Source of the DNA: a virus
Taxonomy: Duplodnaviria > Caudoviricetes
Strand: one strand, 5' to 3'
Length of the DNA stretch: 64,000 nt
Virus record (IMG/VR): IMGVR_UViG_3300013426_000017
Location: 1 to 64,000 of that record
Part shown: positions 5,231 to 54,728 of the stretch, in pieces
Numbering within the stretch: position 1 is the stretch's first letter
Layout of the letters: every line of letters starts with the position of its first letter
Translations under genes and position numbers: made by a program
Notes under the pieces: generated by a model
The model's input: only the letters and a program-made list of their open reading frames with translations
Databases searched by the model: none
Told to the model about the DNA's origin: nothing

Positions 5231-5526
5231 TATTTCATACCCTAAACTAGACTAATGCATTCAAATACGGTCTTGCGATATAGCGAAAAAGTGGTCTCTT
5301 CTACGAGCATACCTTCTAGCTTTGCCAAAAGCTGCAAAAAAAGTGGGTTGTGCAAGAATATCTCACTCAATCCACTAATTTCTAAAATAACCGTATTTAA
5401 TTGCTTCATCCAGTCTTCTTCATTTTCGCGCATTGGAATTAATTTCCAAAGCTAATCAGTTAACCGAGATATATTTTTAGCAATTACTTCAGGGGGGAAA
5501 TCAAAATCGTACTTAGTCTAAAGCAC
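5230..5526 (-). CDS. Hypothetical neck-module protein (3 TAG)
   Basis: GTG start, extends ORF 5242-5433 to TAA 5230. Confidence 0.6.
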
Positions 5527-20021: not shown

Positions 20022-20438
20022 TTGAATTTGTTAATCAGGACTTGCCACAATTGGTAAGTCCTTTTTAAATGTCTTGTAATGCGTTGTAAGCGGTTTTTGA
20101 ATGTGGCGAGGGTAAGTATACCATGAGACAATAAAAGGGCCTGTGAAGGCGCTCAGTCGTGTGAGGCGTGATAAGCTGTCAAGACGCTAATTAGCTCAAA
20201 CAATACTATTGTAGATTTTTGCGCAACACACAAACGCTTGTTAAACATTTAACAAACATCCTAAAACCACAAGAACGCACATTGTTAGTTAATTAACAAA
20301 CAATCGCTAAAGTAACTATAATACAGCCACTAAAAAAACTTTAAAAAACTTGCAAAAAACTGTTGACAAATCGCCCGGGCGGTGCTATACTCTAACCATG
20401 GAAAACAAAAACACACCAACAATTTGGAGGTAACAACA

Positions 20439-20693
20439 ATGGAGCGTTGGACGATTAAATCATACGATGAGCGAGGCAAACAGATAGAATTTGCGCAGGC
20501 CTATTGGTCAGGCGATGCAAGAGACCTTGAAGAGACGCTCTATATACTTTATGAGATAGAGCCAAAGCATAGACATTGGATAGAGCAAATGCAGGCAATT
20601 AATTTTGCAGGGTTTACCTATCATGGATGCTATGATATGGGAGTGTATCTCGACTACAACACTAACACAATAAAGGTTATGGACATTGCCTAA
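20439..20693 (+). CDS. Hypothetical early protein
   Basis: GGAGG RBS before ATG 20439. Confidence 0.65.
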   Translation: MERWTIKSYDERGKQIEFAQAYWSGDARDLEETLYILYEIEPKHRHWIEQMQAINFAGFTYHGCYDMGVYLDYNTNTIKVMDIA

Positions 20694-20728
20694 TATAGGC
20701 AGTGTCCAGTATATGGGAGGATAACACA

Positions 20729-21037
20729 ATGATTAACATTCGCACTATTCGCAAGCTCACCAATAACGACGGTTTAACACTGAAAGCGGGCAAGCCCATT
20801 AGATATAAAAGTGGGTGGCAGGTAGCCACATATGGCATACAGTGCGCCACAGCAGAAGAGGCTATAAAGGCAGTGAGACGCTATAATGGTAATTGTGGCA
20901 TATGGCTTGAAAATGGCATCTACTATATCGACGAAAGTTTCAGAGTATCAACCAAAAGGGAAGCAATGGAAATAGGTAGGGCACACAATCAAATATCGGT
21001 GCTCAAGTGGGCGAATATGACACTTGCATATTGCTAA
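20729..21037 (+). CDS. Hypothetical early protein
   Basis: GGAGG RBS before ATG 20729. Confidence 0.7.
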   Translation: MINIRTIRKLTNNDGLTLKAGKPIRYKSGWQVATYGIQCATAEEAIKAVRRYNGNCGIWLENGIYYIDESFRVSTKREAMEIGRAHNQISVLKWANMTLAYC

Positions 21038-50911: not shown

Positions 50912-51019
50912 AATTCTTAATTGACAAAATTAAAAATTTATAATATAATATATACATAAAGAAAAATGATTTTTTAATAATTATCCTCCTCTTGGGGCGC
51001 CAAGTAAAATACGCAATAT

Positions 51020-51104
51020 GCGCGAGTGATGGAATAGGTAGACAGCATTCTCTTAGAAAGAATGGCCAAAAGGCGTGTGGGTTCAAGTCCCACCTTGCGC
51101 ACCA
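51020..51104 (+). tRNA. tRNA-Leu(UAG)
   Basis: Cloverleaf, loop CTTAGAA, long variable arm, encoded CCA. Confidence 0.92.
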
Positions 51105-51362
51105 ATATTTGGGCAACGGTAGTCCATAACTGTGCAGCGAGGTTCGAGTCCTCAAGTTAATCTGGTTCGACTCCAGTAGCGCAAGGTGCAAAACAGCGGG
51201 TTGGTAAACCTCCTTTCGAGGAAAGCTTTCACTTAATTGACAAAATTAAATTTTTATTATATAATATATATATAATAAAGATTTATTTCCCTAATATGTT
51301 CTGTGTTTTTATTCCTTTCTTACAAGGCGTTGAGGGTCCGCCTCATAGACCCTCATGAATAT

Positions 51363-51449
51363 GGAGATGTGTTGTAACCGGTAGCCAAGTTGGTCTCAAA
51401 AACCAATGCGTTAATTCGCGTGTGGGTTCGAATCCCACCATCTCTACCA
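51363..51449 (+). tRNA. tRNA-Leu(CAA)
   Basis: Cloverleaf, loop CTCAAAA, CCA end. Confidence 0.92.
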
Positions 51450-51798
51450 CGGGTTCTCGGCCTTCTATCCACAAAGAGGGTTCCAAGAGGTCTAACGCGA
51501 GGGTATCTCTTGTAAATAATATATACTTCGCGAGGCTAGGAGTGGCGACCTACCTGCTATATAAATATCGCTTCGATCGAGCGCTTAGGCACGCGCTATA
51601 AAAGATATTGCTTTGACAACGGAGATGAGCGGTCTCACCTAGTGAATAGAACAAAAAGATGCCCGCCTAGAATGCATTCAGAGGTTAACCGATTTCCCTC
51701 AAGGAGTATGTCCTTAAAAAATCGGGCTAGCTTAAAAAACCATTTGACATTTTTAAAAAAATATTATATAATATTTATAGAAAGTGAGAAATGGAAAA

Positions 51799-51939
51799 AT
51801 GAACAAACGAATAAAGAAAAAGACTGGCGATGAGCTTCAAGACTTCTTGATGTGGCGCAATCGGGGATCGATAATCGCGCCAAAGAGAGGCAAAGGCTCA
51901 TTCAAAAGAAAAGCAAAACATAAAAATAAAGAATGTTAA
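51799..51939 (+). CDS. arfA: ArfA-like ribosome rescue factor (46 aa)
   Basis: PKRGKGSFKRKAKHK matches ArfA KKGKGSYxRKxKH; own promoter at 51744. Confidence 0.65.
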   Translation: MNKRIKKKTGDELQDFLMWRNRGSIIAPKRGKGSFKRKAKHKNKEC

Positions 51940-51943
51940 ATAT

Positions 51944-52023
51944 GGTGCCATCGACTAAAGGTTAGGTCCTCACCCTTTCAAGGTGAAAATGGTTTTTGGG
52001 TTCAAGTCCCCCTGGCATCACCA
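51944..52023 (+). tRNA. tRNA-Glu(UUC) with atypical T-stem
   Basis: Loop CTTTCAA, CCA end; TTTTT insertion in the T-stem 5' strand. Confidence 0.8.
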
Positions 52024-52199
52024 TGCGTATAGCGCAACTGACATAGAGGATGGATTTCCTTGTGGGTTCCTTAAACTACCACCAATCATTATTGAGTATG
52101 TGGCTTAGTCATTTGCAGTCAGTATAATAAATAAAAACGAAAGTAAAGCGAATCCTCATTTGATAAAAATAAAAAATTTTGTTATAATAATTATAGAAA

Positions 52200-52827
52200 T
52201 TGAACCTTGAAAAATAAACACTTGATAACTCAGTGCAGAATGGATGCGATGTCCATGCTGAGAAACATCGAAAAGCGCTCGGAGGTGCCCGAACGAAACA
52301 AGGATACTTGTGGAAACCTGACCGCGGTATGCAAGGCGACTTGTATGCTGAACACCATTTGTGTGGAAAGTAAAGATGTTGTGCTGGCGTTGTCGCATGT
52401 AAAGGATGCCGTGGACAGGGGTGTGCAATAGAAAGCTATCTTGACAAAAGATGGCCTCTCCTAGTTAGGGTGAAACGAGTGGTGTCGTCATTAAACCTAG
52501 GAAATACCAACAAACACCTGTGCCGTGATGTATCAGAAATGATACTATAACTGTCTACAAGCGAACGAGTAGCGGAAGGCAAAAGAATAATGAAGAAAAA
52601 GTATGATATTCTACTTGCGAAGAATAACAAGTAAATTCTGAATATCCCGTGAAAGTTAGAGGTAATCAATCCTCTAGGGGCTTGGGCTCGAAAGAGTGAG
52701 GGCAAAAAGTTTAGTTAAGACGTTAGCTAAGCTCAGATTTGTTTTCTCCCGTGTCTGAATATGCGTGAAGATATACGTTGCAGTAAGGCGAAGGCCTATC
52801 AATGAGTGTTTATTTTTCAAGGCTCAA
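52200..52827 (+). ncRNA. Large structured ncRNA, probably ROOL
   Basis: About 628 nt closed by a long terminal helix CCTTGAAAAATAAACACT/AGTGTTTATTTTTCAAGG; GAGTAGC, GTGAAAGT, GGTAATCAATCC motifs; own promoter; within tRNA cluster. Confidence 0.8.
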
Positions 52828-52974
52828 ACCTTGAGTAATTGGATGGAGGTATGATTATGAAAACTATGTTGAATAAATGTGCGTCCATGAGAAGTCCAGA
52901 TATTTCTGGCGATGAGACCTAACTCATCTAAATACAAGGCGTAATATGGCGTCGCGTAAGAACGCCATATATAT

Positions 52975-53048
52975 TGCTCGGTAGTGTAAAGGTAGCATAT
53001 CGGATTCATGCTCCGAAGATTTGGGTTCGATCCCCAACTGAGCAACCA
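52975..53048 (+). tRNA. tRNA-Met(CAU)
   Basis: Loop TTCATGC, U1-A72 pair, CCA end. Confidence 0.85.
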
Positions 53049-53243
53049 GCGCTTTGGGCGCCCAAGACCGCCGTTCGGGGAACCTAAAATGTATTGTGAA
53101 ATGGATTTAGGCTGGCGTAATATCCTACCCTTTCTATATATTTAGTAAATATATGGAACAAAAACTATTAATTGTGAGGAGTTTTTACACCTGAGCCAAG
53201 TAATTGGTTTTGTTTTTTACCTCACAATTTTTTATTTAGATAT

Positions 53244-53334
53244 GCCCGATTACCCAAGTGGTTGAAGGGGTCCGCTTGCTAAGCGGATAGGGGTCGTAAG
53301 ACCCGCCGAGATTCGAATTCTCGATCGGGCGCCA
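53244..53334 (+). tRNA. tRNA-Ser(GCU)
   Basis: Loop TTGCTAA, long variable arm, GCCA end. Confidence 0.9.
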
Positions 53335-53355
53335 TAAATCCAAAAGGAGAACAAA

Positions 53356-54387
53356 ATGGAAAAGAATTTATCTATTATAATTCCCGTATATAATGGTGAG
53401 AAATATATTGGAACCGCATTGAGTTCCCTCGTAGATGCAAAGAATTTTCTCAAGGAGGTCATTATTGGTTGTGACCACTGCACCGATGGAACCAAGAGTG
53501 TAGCTGAGAAATTTGCTGAGACATTACCTATTAAGATTGTTGACGTGGCGCTGGACCTGCCTAATGGCCCCGGCAACGCTAGACAAGCGGGTCTTGATGT
53601 GGCGACTGGCGAATGGGTTGGTTTTCTTGATGTTGATGATGTTATTCCTACTGGCACTGTGCAGGCTGTAGCGCATACTATAGACGAGGTTGAGAAGAAG
53701 GTTGCTGAAGCTAAGATTGAAATTCCTATGATTATTGGTAATTTCACTGAGCGTAATGGGCTCACTGGTGAGACTGGTTTTGTCCATAAGAATGATAGCA
53801 CTTGGGTGCATGGCAAGTGGTATAATCGTAAGTTCCTCGTTGATAAAAATATACGATTTGACACTGAGTTGTATACTCATGAGGATGTATATTTTAATAA
53901 TCTTGTAGTTTCTCATATCATCGGTTGCGGCGGCTCCTATTGCACCATGGATCAGAATACTTACTTTTGGAATCAAAACATAGGTTCCATGACTAGCTCC
54001 CCTCGCTATACCGAGGAAAATTTTGCAGATTACGCATTTAGTGTCATGGAAGCGGGCTTGGCGATGCGTGAAAAATACCCCGCCAAGAAGAGTGAGTATC
54101 TCAAGATATTGTTGAATAACTATTGTCTGATGTATTTGTATTATATGAATTTCTTGTATTATCATCCTGAAGATATTAATCCTGAGATTAAAAATATCAT
54201 GAATGATTATTATCAGAGAATTTGCAATACATATAACGCGAAGACTGGGGACATTTGGGCATATTATAAAAATATGGTTGCTCAGTATCCCGCCTGGAAG
54301 GAAAATGTGGCACGTTCCTATCGTCCATTCTTTGAGAAGTGGACATTGGAAGATTTCTTATTCGATAAGGTTTGGGTTGGTGATTAA
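53356..54387 (+). CDS. Glycosyltransferase family 2
   Basis: SIIIPVYN, DHCTD, ARQAGL, FLDVDD, HED. Confidence 0.9.
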   Translation: MEKNLSIIIPVYNGEKYIGTALSSLVDAKNFLKEVIIGCDHCTDGTKSVAEKFAETLPIKIVDVALDLPNGPGNARQAGLDVATGEWVGFLDVDDVIPTGTVQAVAHTIDEVEKKVAEAKIEIPMIIGNFTERNGLTGETGFVHKNDSTWVHGKWYNRKFLVDKNIRFDTELYTHEDVYFNNLVVSHIIGCGGSYCTMDQNTYFWNQNIGSMTSSPRYTEENFADYAFSVMEAGLAMREKYPAKKSEYLKILLNNYCLMYLYYMNFLYYHPEDINPEIKNIMNDYYQRICNTYNAKTGDIWAYYKNMVAQYPAWKENVARSYRPFFEKWTLEDFLFDKVWVGD

Positions 54388-54403
54388 TCATCAACCCTGA
54401 TAT

Positions 54404-54566
54404 CCGGGTGTAGCGCAGTTGGTAGCGCGCCTGATTTGGTAAAATGGCAGAATGGGATTGCTTGAGGGGTTCGCCTTGAGGTCAGTTGAATCTGTTGCAA
54501 GTTCGAATCTTGCTTTTACCACTAGGGTTCAGGAAGCCGGGGGTTCAAGTCCCTCCACTCGGACCA
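54404..54566 (+). tRNA. tRNA-Pro(UGG) interrupted in the anticodon by an 87-nt insert
   Basis: 54404-54437 plus 54525-54566 form a canonical tRNA-Pro with loop TTT/GGGT. Confidence 0.85.
54438..54524 (+). ncRNA. Nested tRNA-shaped insert without a normal anticodon loop
   Basis: GGTAAAA/TTTTACC stem, D-arm, variable arm, perfect T-arm GCAAGTTCGAATCTTGC, ACTA tail. Confidence 0.8.
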
Positions 54567-54569
54567 TAT

Positions 54570-54644
54570 AGCCTCGTCGTATAAAAGTGAGTATGCTGGG
54601 CTTTGAACCCAGAGGAGGTGGAGCGTTACCACCCGAGGCTGCCA
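54570..54644 (+). tRNA. tRNA-Gln(UUG) with non-canonical T-loop
   Basis: Loop CTTTGAA, AGCCTCG/CGAGGCT stem, GCCA end, T-loop AGCGTTA. Confidence 0.8.
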
Positions 54645-54695
54645 CTATAGCCTATATAGGGCTGTATACATTCATTTTTGTTCTCCAATTTCAAG

Positions 54696-54728
54696 AAATA
54701 GTGTGGTTAATCGCCACACTATTTTTTT
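54696..54728 (+). terminator. Terminator of the tRNA cluster
   Basis: ATAGTGTGG/CCACACTAT plus T7. Confidence 0.8.

What the first reader, a model, noticed from the sequence alone, without database searches (positions are those of the whole stretch)
54404..54566. tRNA inside a tRNA: tRNA-shaped insert splitting the anticodon of tRNA-Pro
Seen: both flanks form an undegraded tRNA-Pro(UGG) with encoded CCA, split inside the anticodon (TTT|GGGT; junction can slide 2 nt because both sides begin GG). The 87-nt insert is itself a class II-like cloverleaf: 7-bp acceptor stem, D-arm, variable arm, perfect T-arm, a degenerate anticodon arm with a TTCG loop, and ACTA where ACCA would be. It is far too short for a group I or II intron, the types known in bacterial tRNAs. 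Inference: a tRNA-mimic intron that RNase P and a 3' nuclease could excise before ligation, giving timed tRNA maturation, or a decoy/shield against host anticodon nucleases. Cutting after A54521 instead would leave CUA in an enlarged loop, notable in an amber-recoding phage. I do not know of a described example.
Basis: partly seen in the sequence, partly recalled or inferred. Interest (0 to 1): 0.92.

Follow-up and report, generated by a model that had tools for sequence, protein, structure and literature searches.

The report
tRNA-shaped intron inside phage tRNA-Pro
The only proline tRNA gene of this large gut phage is split in its anticodon by an 87-base insert that is folded like a tRNA. 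Selection keeps both parts intact, so the insert is probably cut out by ordinary tRNA-trimming enzymes and the tRNA resealed by the phage's RNA ligase, a splicing route that no experiment has yet shown.

Summary
Positions 54404-54566 are a tRNA-Pro(UGG) gene interrupted after anticodon base 34 by an 87-nt tRNA-like insert (54438-54524). It is not a misassembly. The same nest occurs as six haplotypes in 14 contig or genome records. Every stem of both the inner and the outer cloverleaf stays paired (264 of 264 cells, three compensatory double changes). Close relatives carry an uninterrupted tRNA-Pro at the same spot, which fixes the insert boundaries.

Three more nests follow the same rule in this phage clade: Lys::Asn, Glu::tRNA-like and Gln::mimic. 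The insert always starts at +1 of a 7-bp acceptor stem and ends 4 nt after it.

The phage encodes a DRB0094-like RNA ligase. It has no RtcB, RNase Z, CCA-adding enzyme, reverse transcriptase or archaeal splicing endonuclease. My best reading (about 0.55) is that host RNase P and a 3' tRNA endonuclease excise the insert and the phage ligase joins the halves. The 3' cut is unexplained, and I found no RNA evidence.

This is not unprecedented. Lak megaphage tRNA introns that "may encode a tRNA" were noted in 2019 (PMC6784885). This scan has also reported tRNA-shaped introns in other phages. I class it as a new variant of a barely described kind.

The parts
54404..54437 (+). 5' exon of tRNA-Pro(UGG): acceptor 5' strand, D arm, anticodon-stem 5' strand and loop nt 32-34 (TTT)
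   Evidence: ARAGORN intron mode. Aligns with uninterrupted orthologues L020, L017 and L062.
54438..54524 (+). 87-nt tRNA-shaped insert (intron). It starts at G+1 of its own acceptor stem and ends 4 nt after that stem.
   Evidence: Rfam tRNA 40.6 bits. ARAGORN. Boundaries fixed by comparing filled and empty sites. Six haplotypes, all stems kept.
54438..54444 (+). Inner acceptor stem, 5' strand. It pairs with 54514-54520.
   Evidence: 7 bp. The third pair is T-A in three haplotypes and C-G in three.
54497..54513 (+). Inner T arm (5-bp stem, canonical TTCGAAT/TTCGAGT loop)
   Evidence: Rfam alignment. One compensatory A-T to G-C pair in G001.
54463..54479 (+). Degenerate 'anticodon' arm of the insert: a short stem with one G-G mismatch and a loop holding TTCG, without U33
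   Evidence: Read from the sequence. Rfam skips this arm. One G-U to A-U change keeps pairing.
54521..54524 (+). Insert tail ACTA, where a tRNA would have discriminator plus CCA. Invariant in all six haplotypes.
   Evidence: Alignment A2.
54525..54566 (+). 3' exon of tRNA-Pro(UGG): loop nt 35-38 (GGGT), anticodon-stem 3' strand, variable loop, T arm, acceptor 3' strand, A73 and CCA
   Evidence: The spliced loop TTTGGGT fits the family pattern TTTGGGN of five uninterrupted orthologues.
54570..54641 (+). Neighbouring tRNA-Gln(UUG), 3 nt downstream, probably on the same transcript. In relative L026 the homologous tRNA carries its own tRNA-shaped insert.
   Evidence: Rfam tRNA 46.2 bits. The L026 nest was read by hand.
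53356..54387 (+). GT2 glycosyltransferase gene, 17 nt upstream. Used as a synteny anchor and as a neutral-rate yardstick.
   Evidence: pS 0.52 and dS 0.90 between G000 and G001.

Best explanation
The 87-nt element is a true intervening sequence of the phage's only tRNA-Pro gene. It is removed at the RNA level because it mimics a tRNA. Inferred steps: the gene is transcribed as one 163-nt nested precursor. Host RNase P cuts 5' of the insert's G+1, which leaves a 3'-OH on exon 1. A tRNA 3'-end endonuclease cuts 4 nt past the insert's acceptor stem, which leaves a 5'-phosphate on exon 2. The outer acceptor and anticodon stems hold the two exons together. The phage's ATP-dependent, DRB0094-like RNA ligase then seals the nick in the anticodon loop and gives tRNA-Pro(UGG). 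Shown here: the anatomy, the exact boundaries, selection on both cloverleaves, filled and empty alleles, three further nests obeying the same boundary rule, and the presence of the ligase. Not shown: any cleavage, any ligated product, and the identity of the 3' nuclease. I give about 0.8 that it is a spliced intron of some kind and about 0.55 that this particular pathway removes it. At the DNA level it behaves like a mobile or recombining insert.
For: (1) Boundaries. Uninterrupted orthologues at the same site (L020-L025, L017/L018, L062) have the loop TTTGGGA. The filled allele has TTT[87 nt]GGGT.

(2) The insert keeps what RNase P, RNase Z and CCA-adding enzymes read: G+1, U-1, a 7-bp acceptor stem stacked on a canonical T arm, and a D loop with GG.

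(3) Six haplotypes in 14 contig or genome records. On the nested cloverleaf, 264 of 264 cells pair, there are three compensatory double changes (outer acceptor, inner acceptor, inner T stem), four wobble-compatible changes and none broken. Slid controls pair at 36-53% with no double changes.

(4) Between G000 and G001 the adjacent gene has pS 0.52. The outer tRNA body differs at 1 of 73 positions and the insert at 6 of 87, four of them in two compensatory pairs.

(5) It is the only tRNA-Pro in the genome, and every relative examined but the most distant ones (L028-L031) keeps a tRNA-Pro(UGG) after the GT2 gene.

(6) The same rule (insert from +1 to 4 nt past the acceptor stem, 7-nt loop restored, anticodon matching the outer tRNA's identity) holds for three other nests. 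tRNA-Lys::tRNA-Asn is in G000, L069 and L071, with an empty allele in L070. tRNA-Glu::tRNA-like and tRNA-Gln::mimic are in L026.

(7) The ligase is phrog_968 (E 2e-61) and TIGR02306-like, and its homologues carry PF09414. A PNK-like kinase and two metallophosphoesterases lie beside it, and the genes are also present in G001. Known biochemistry: RNase P and RNase Z leave 3'-OH and 5'-P ends, which is what ATP-dependent RNA ligases join.

(8) G000 has no RtcB, no archaeal splicing endonuclease, no metallo-beta-lactamase (RNase Z) fold, no CCA-adding enzyme and no reverse transcriptase. The region has no ribozyme or intron family match in Rfam.
Against: There is no RNA evidence, because the phage was barely present in the RNA runs laid.

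The 3' cut is a problem. Canonical RNase Z cuts after the discriminator of CCA-less precursors. That would leave CTA on exon 2 and a 10-nt loop. A cut after position 76 is known to me only for CCA-ending precursors (Thermotoga RNase Z, E. coli RNase BN; from memory).

The ligase is present throughout the clade, including in phages with empty sites (L069 is the L017 genome). It is therefore permissive, not diagnostic.

The published Lak introns have a 5' hairpin before their tRNA-like part. An RNase P cut would not free their exon 1 cleanly, so the wider class may use another enzyme.

The insert core (1-2 changes in 52 nt) is more conserved than mere excision seems to need.

Alleles recombine at this locus, so part of the outer tRNA's variation may have been imported from uninterrupted alleles.
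Confidence: 0.55

Rival explanations
1. It is a spliced intron, but the cuts are made by something other than RNase P plus RNase Z. Candidates are a dedicated phage nuclease (for example the PIN-PhoH protein or an unrecognised enzyme) or structure-assisted self-cleavage. The ends would then be healed by the PNK-like kinase and phosphoesterases before ligation.
For: The 3' boundary, 4 nt past the acceptor stem whatever the tail sequence (CCA, CTA, CTG), does not fit canonical RNase Z. The ACTA tail is invariant. A kinase, two metallophosphoesterases and a PIN-PhoH gene lie near the ligase. Lak introns have a 5' extension.
Against: The 5' boundary is exactly +1 of the acceptor stem in all four nests. 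G is at +1 in all four and U at -1 in three, which is the RNase P signature. No ribozyme family matched. The healing enzymes are common anti-anticodon-nuclease equipment of large phages.
Confidence: 0.2
2. The composite RNA is not spliced into a tRNA. The conserved insert is released, or acts in place, as a functional tRNA-like RNA, for example a decoy for host anticodon nucleases or tRNA-binding defences. The tRNA-Pro halves would be scaffold or by-product.
For: The insert core (D arm to variable arm) has only 1-2 changes in 52 nt across lineages whose neighbouring gene has pS of about 0.5. That is more constraint than shape alone requires. Three of the four outer tRNAs in the clade (Lys, Glu, Gln) are classical anticodon-nuclease targets (from memory).
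Against: The outer anticodon-loop halves, the anticodon stem and the identity elements (C1-G72, A73, G35, G36, G37) are all kept, and it is the only tRNA-Pro gene. In the Lys::Asn nest the insert is an ordinary tRNA-Asn. A decoy need not restore a perfect 7-nt loop.
Confidence: 0.12
3. A tRNA-like mobile element has landed in the gene and killed it. The outer tRNA-Pro is a young pseudogene that looks intact only because the insertion is recent or spreads by recombination with co-conversion of its flanks.
For: The filled state is patchy on the neighbouring gene's divergence. L063/L064 (filled) are closer to L062 and L020 (empty; dS 0.30-0.41) than to G000 (filled; dS 0.84). The bases next to the insert (A31, T38, T39) travel with it.
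Against: The insert itself has diverged (6 of 87 positions between G000 and G001, two compensatory pairs). Over the same period the outer body shows no disabling change in any of the six haplotypes. There is no second tRNA-Pro in the genome. Three other nests are kept the same way, one of them across three divergent phages with a compensatory change in the outer T stem.
Confidence: 0.08
4. It is an archaeal or eukaryal-type intron cut at a bulge-helix-bulge motif, or a miniature self-splicing intron.
For: It sits in the anticodon loop, as those introns do.
Against: No bulge-helix-bulge can be drawn, because the insert's acceptor helix starts at the junction. The junction lies at 34|35, not 37|38. 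The genome has no tRNA_int_endo and no RtcB. At 87 nt it has no group I or II core and no Rfam match.
Confidence: 0.02

Closest known systems
'Enigmatic' tRNA introns of Lak megaphages (Devoto et al. 2019, Nat Microbiol, PMC6784885; Fig. 4, Table S6)
   Same: These are phage tRNA genes split in the anticodon loop by short ORF-less inserts containing an acceptor-like helix and a T arm. One (in tRNA-Thr) was said possibly to encode a tRNA. They occur in gut phages with a recoded stop codon, and alleles with and without the insert exist.
   Different: Lak inserts begin with a small hairpin and an A-rich linker before the tRNA-like part, and by my reading of the tRNA-Gly example they sit at about 37|38. 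Here the insert is tRNA-shaped from its very first base and sits at 34|35 (or at 36|37 in the CCA-ended nests). No mechanism, covariation or ligase link was given for the Lak introns.
Group I introns in bacterial and phage tRNA anticodon loops (e.g. cyanobacterial tRNA-Leu(UAA))
   Same: Anticodon-loop position, presence/absence polymorphism, and phenotypic silence through RNA-level removal. This genome also has a 342-nt insert in tRNA-Leu(UAA) at U34|A35.
   Different: At 87 nt the insert has no catalytic core, no guanosine-binding helix and no Rfam match. It would depend on proteins.
Archaeal and eukaryal tRNA introns (bulge-helix-bulge, splicing endonuclease plus RtcB or Trl1), including the archaeal tRNA-Trp intron that carries a C/D box RNA
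   Same: Protein-dependent cut-and-ligate splicing of a tRNA. The intron can itself be a structured, functional RNA.
   Different: There is no bulge-helix-bulge, no endonuclease and no RtcB here. The predicted ends are 3'-OH and 5'-P rather than 2',3'-cyclic phosphate and 5'-OH.
T4 Pnk/Rnl1 repair of anticodon-loop-cleaved tRNA-Lys, and DraRnl (DRB0094)/Rnl5-type nick-sealing ligases
   Same: A phage ligase sealing a break in a tRNA anticodon loop that the tRNA fold holds together. The same enzyme set (ligase, kinase, phosphoesterase) is encoded here.
   Different: In T4 the break is damage inflicted by a host nuclease. Here it would be a programmed step of maturation.
tRNA punctuation (mitochondrial transcripts; T4 dimeric tRNA precursors)
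   Same: RNase P and RNase Z use a tRNA fold as the signal to cut a longer transcript.
   Different: In those cases the flanking pieces are separate products and are not rejoined.

Membership tests
tRNA fold (Rfam RF00005): the insert | Score above the gathering threshold with acceptor, D and T arms | tested here: met
   40.6 bits against a threshold of 29, with the anticodon arm skipped. ARAGORN also calls it.
Decoding tRNA: the insert | 7-nt anticodon loop with U33, intact 5-bp anticodon stem, and a CCA end or a CCA-less end fit for CCA addition | tested here: not met
   The loop lacks U33, the stem has a G-G mismatch, and the tail is ACTA. A class II shape with 'UUC' fits no known isoacceptor.
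tRNA-Pro(UGG): the two flanks joined | Cloverleaf with a 7-nt loop, UGG anticodon, G37, and C1-G72/A73 as in bacterial tRNA-Pro | tested here: met
   ARAGORN intron mode. Aligned with five uninterrupted orthologues that share the loop pattern TTTGGGN and have covarying stems.
Group I / group II intron | Catalytic core (P3-P8, or domains I-VI), length of about 200 nt or more | tested here: not met
   The insert is 87 nt. Nothing but tRNA matched in Rfam at E up to 1.
Bulge-helix-bulge tRNA intron | Two 3-nt bulges around a 4-bp helix at the splice sites, a splicing endonuclease, and an RtcB or Trl1 ligase | tested here: not met
   The junctions abut the insert's acceptor helix. PF01974 and PF01139 are absent from the genome.
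tRNA-shaped introns of phage tRNAs (Lak type, and those reported earlier by this scan) | ORF-less insert in the anticodon loop of a phage tRNA gene, containing an acceptor helix stacked on a T arm | tested here: met
   Compared with Table S6 of PMC6784885.
tRNA-shaped introns of phage tRNAs | Removal from the RNA and ligation of the exons | not testable with these tools
   RNA runs held almost none of this phage. No experiment is published for any member, as far as my searches reach.
Rnl5 / DRB0094-type RNA ligase: the genome's ligase (78552-79889 of the record) | N-terminal OB domain plus nucleotidyltransferase domain with the KxxG lysine motif; family score cut-off | tested here: inconclusive
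   phrog_968 'RNA ligase' at E 2e-61. TIGR02306 at E 1.8e-9, but 36.9 bits against a cut-off of 151. A KMHG motif is present. Homologues carry PF09414. No structure was predicted.

The most novel reading that the evidence does not exclude
tRNA-mimic introns would be a mobile-element class that uses the cell's tRNA end-processing machinery as its splicing apparatus and depends on a phage RNA ligase for exon joining. Maturation of the phage's own tRNA-Pro (and of Lys, Glu and Gln in relatives) would then be gated by phage ligase activity. The excised, unusually conserved mimic would itself be a functional RNA, for example a decoy against host tRNA-targeting defences.
Probability: 0.2. Interest if true: 0.9.

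Novelty: new variant of a known kind. Interest (0 to 1): 0.7.

Why it matters
If the proposed route is right, this is a third way of splicing tRNAs, alongside self-splicing and endonuclease/RtcB splicing. It would be built wholly from enzymes that every bacterium and many phages already have. It would also give phage RNA ligases a routine job beyond damage repair.

This locus is a good test bed for three reasons:
- It has natural filled and empty alleles, and six covarying haplotypes.
- In the same genome it has both a degenerate "mimic" insert with a non-CCA tail and a nest whose insert is a working-looking tRNA-Asn ending in CCA.
- The outer tRNA is the phage's only tRNA-Pro.

There is a practical point too. 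Standard tRNA finders miss or mis-name these genes: ARAGORN called the insert tRNA-Glu and a related nest tRNA-SeC or tRNA-Pro. Phage tRNA inventories are therefore biased.

Tried and rejected
RNA evidence: I laid one DNA-like holder and three RNA runs on 51000-54700. The RNA runs held only fragments of relatives and bacterial tRNA-Pro 5' halves. The one joint across the insert (54439 to 54530, with GAG between) is an uninterrupted tRNA-Pro of another organism or relative, not the spliced product of this gene. This gives no verdict either way.

GenBank phages: blastn of 54300-54700 found only a 40-nt match to the tRNA-Pro 5' half.

IMG/VR and JGI metagenome pattern scans with insert-core words found only G001 and chance hits in protein genes.

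Parent tRNA of the insert: the best global identity to any tRNA in about 25 related loci is 0.64, to class II tRNA-Leu. That is generic tRNA similarity, and there is no stand-alone copy.

CUA-anticodon idea: rejected, because it needs a 10-nt loop and the relative's insert tail is CTG.

Trimming exon 1 back to the stem, giving the loop CTAGGGT and anticodon AGG: rejected, because the same rule would give His in the tRNA-Gln nest.

ARAGORN's reading of L026:6413-6556 as tRNA-Pro with a 62-nt intron: rejected by hand. The true 3' stem strand lies further on, and the outer tRNA is Gln(UUG) with G73.

Literature searches for nested tRNA, tRNA-like intron and related terms found nothing beyond Devoto 2019.

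The promoter and terminator scan gave nothing above background next to the gene.

Full report
**What is there.** The window is the first 64 kb of a 175,406-bp IMG/VR phage record that is 96% complete. The phage reads TAG as sense. It carries a tRNA(CUA), and several genes of relatives translate only with TAG=Q.

At 54404-54566 the sequence is a tRNA-Pro(UGG) gene cut after loop base 34 by 87 nt. Without introns it calls the insert itself a tRNA. Rfam's tRNA model scores the insert at 40.6 bits, above the threshold of 29, aligning its acceptor, D and T arms and skipping the middle arm. The minimum-free-energy fold of the 163-nt RNA gives the nested architecture on its own.

- a 7-bp acceptor stem starting at the first inserted base;
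- a D arm with GG;
- a long variable arm and a canonical T arm;
- a crippled anticodon arm (one G-G mismatch, no U33, a loop holding TTCG);
- the tail ACTA;
- a junction that can slide by 2 nt because GG stands on both sides.

**It is real DNA, and it recurs.** A complete relative (G001, 174 kb, terminal repeats) has the same nest. Through the 88-aa gene just downstream I fetched 12 more ENA/Logan contigs that hold the nest. One 12.8-kb Logan contig runs through it. Together they give six haplotypes (alignment A2).

**Filled and empty sites.** Relatives found through the upstream GT2 gene carry an uninterrupted tRNA-Pro(UGG) at the same place, 17-18 nt after the gene. These are L020-L025 (pig gut), L017/L018 and L062. 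Their loop is TTTGGGA. The filled allele reads TTT, then 87 nt, then GGGT. The spliced outer sequence fits the family pattern (loop TTTGGGN, perfectly paired but different anticodon stems, C1-G72, A73) of five uninterrupted orthologues.

**Selection.** On the nested cloverleaf that I wrote down, all 264 cells of 44 pairs are standard pairs in the six haplotypes.
- Three pairs changed on both sides: outer acceptor 2:71, the third pair of the inner acceptor, and one inner T-stem pair.
- Four pairs changed on one side through wobble, and none is broken.
- With the 3' partners slid by 1-3 columns only 36-53% pair, and no double changes appear.

Between G000 and G001 the adjoining GT2 gene has 52% of synonymous sites changed (dS 0.90, dN 0.04), and the spacer after the tRNA is unalignable. 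Yet the outer tRNA body differs at 1 of 73 positions and the insert at 6 of 87, four of them forming two compensatory pairs. Both cloverleaves are therefore under purifying selection.

One caveat applies. Alleles at this locus recombine. By GT2 divergence the filled L063/L064 are nearer to the empty L062 and L020 (dS 0.30-0.41) than to the filled G000 (dS 0.84). The bases touching the insert (A31, T38, T39) travel with it, while distal outer positions match local uninterrupted alleles. That pattern is what co-conversion or allele swapping would give. It means the insert behaves as a mobile or recombining unit, and part of the outer variation may have been imported. Even so, no haplotype shows a disabling change, and this is the only tRNA-Pro gene of the genome.

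**The same rule in three other nests.**
- In this genome, outside the window, tRNA-Lys(UUU) (record 73484-73635) holds a complete tRNA-Asn(GUU) between bases 36 and 37. It runs from G+1 to CCA with no extra base.
- That nest recurs in two divergent relatives (L069, L071), with a compensatory change in the outer T stem and covariation at inner pair 50:64. L070 has the uninterrupted allele with loop CTTTTAA. G001 has lost the nest to a GIY-YIG endonuclease gene.
- A more distant relative (L026) has tRNA-Glu(UUC) with a 75-nt, CCA-ended tRNA-like insert at 36|37.
- L026 also has tRNA-Gln(UUG) with a 70-nt mimic whose middle arm ends in a TTTT tetraloop and whose tail is TCTG, at 34|35. ARAGORN mis-called both.

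In all four nests the insert starts at +1 of a 7-bp acceptor stem (G at +1 in all four, U at -1 in three). It ends four bases after that stem. Removing it restores a 7-nt loop whose anticodon agrees with the outer tRNA's identity elements.

**Mechanism.** RNase P recognises the acceptor/T-arm stack and cuts 5' of +1, leaving a 3'-OH upstream (established knowledge). The 5' boundary fits this exactly. A tRNA 3' endonuclease leaves a 5'-phosphate downstream. These are the ends that ATP-dependent RNA ligases join, and the two exons would stay together through the outer acceptor and anticodon stems.

The genome encodes the following:
- a 445-aa RNA ligase (phrog_968, E 2e-61; TIGR02306 DRB0094-type at E 1.8e-9, below its cut-off; a KMHG motif; close homologues carry PF09414);
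- a PNK-like kinase;
- two metallophosphoesterases;
- a PIN-PhoH protein.

All of these are also present in G001. The genome has no RtcB, no archaeal splicing endonuclease, no metallo-beta-lactamase RNase Z, no CCA-adding enzyme and no reverse transcriptase. The cuts would therefore be made by host enzymes and the joining by the phage.

The weak point is the 3' cut. Canonical RNase Z cuts CCA-less precursors after the discriminator, which would leave CTA on exon 2. The observed rule of four bases past the stem, whatever the tail, and the invariance of ACTA suggest either a ruler-type cut or another nuclease. The ligase occurs throughout the clade, including in genomes with an empty Pro site, so it is permissive rather than diagnostic.

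**RNA data.** The RNA runs contained relatives' fragments and bacterial tRNA-Pro halves, and the only joint across the insert belongs to an uninterrupted tRNA-Pro.

**What is known.** Devoto et al. 2019 (PMC6784885) reported "enigmatic" introns in Lak megaphage tRNAs and noted that the tRNA-Thr intron "itself may encode a tRNA". Their Table S6 shows inserts made of a 5' hairpin, an A-rich linker and an acceptor/T-arm module that ends two or three bases before the exon. They offered no mechanism, and I found no later paper that does.

Earlier agents of this scan have reported tRNA-shaped introns in other phage genomes and proposed the same RNase P plus ligase route. Those are unverified notes, not independent evidence.

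The present case differs from the Lak type in three ways. It is tRNA-shaped from the first base. It sits inside the anticodon. It comes with population-level proof of selection and with filled and empty alleles.

**Verdict.** The finding is a new variant of a barely described kind, and its mechanism is still untested.

Noticed in passing
window 52205-52817 (+): Full-length ROOL RNA (Rfam RF03087, 301.9 bits) in the middle of the tRNA array. A relative's ROOL reaches a word depth of about 10,000 in one gut metatranscriptome run (X19), far above its surroundings.
   Followed up: partly
G000 record 73484-73635 (outside the window; L013:385-536): tRNA-Lys(UUU) with an intact tRNA-Asn(GUU) (73521-73595) inserted between bases 36 and 37, from G+1 to CCA. 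The same nest is in L069 (around 1777-1929) and L071 (around 5259-5410). L070:2737-2813 has the uninterrupted allele. In G001 a GIY-YIG gene replaces the nest and only the tRNA-Lys 3' end remains (L016, about 1500-1530).
   Followed up: yes
L026:3209-3360 and L026:6413-6556: Two further nests in a distant relative: tRNA-Glu(UUC) with a 75-nt, 21% GC, CCA-ended tRNA-like insert, and tRNA-Gln(UUG) with a 70-nt mimic ending in TCTG. ARAGORN labels them tRNA-SeC and tRNA-Pro.
   Followed up: partly
G000 record 69750-70179 (L014:251-680); G001 20415-20845: tRNA-Leu(UAA) with a 342/343-nt ORF-less insert at U34|A35, the classical group I site. Rfam gives no group I match even at E 10. A P7-like pairing can be seen by eye, and its class is not settled.
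   Followed up: partly
window 54570-54641 (+): tRNA-Gln(UUG) with a non-canonical T loop. Rfam finds it (46.2 bits), but ARAGORN misses it in this genome.
   Followed up: no
L049:11302-11833; L069:212-1083: In relatives, tRNA-Asp(GUC) and tRNA-Phe(GAA) carry 455-nt and 787-nt anticodon-loop inserts. The tRNA-Asp insert holds a small ORF and the tRNA-Phe insert a called 175-aa gene. tRNA genes of this clade are hot spots for several kinds of insert.
   Followed up: no
window 51105-51230 (+): tRNA-like debris after tRNA-Leu(UAG): a D-arm-like hairpin and two T-arm-like hairpins. In L020 an 86-nt class II-like tRNA-Trp(CCA) stands between tRNA-Leu and this element.
   Followed up: no
L002:6761-6764 against window 54563-54566: The outer tRNA-Pro has an encoded CCA in G000 but not in G001. 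The host must therefore add CCA and trim CCA-less 3' ends.
   Followed up: no
L047:14783-14877, L051:15387-15481, L028:4329-4423: 95-nt tRNA-Ile(UAU) with a long variable arm in some relatives, against a 76-nt form in others.
   Followed up: no
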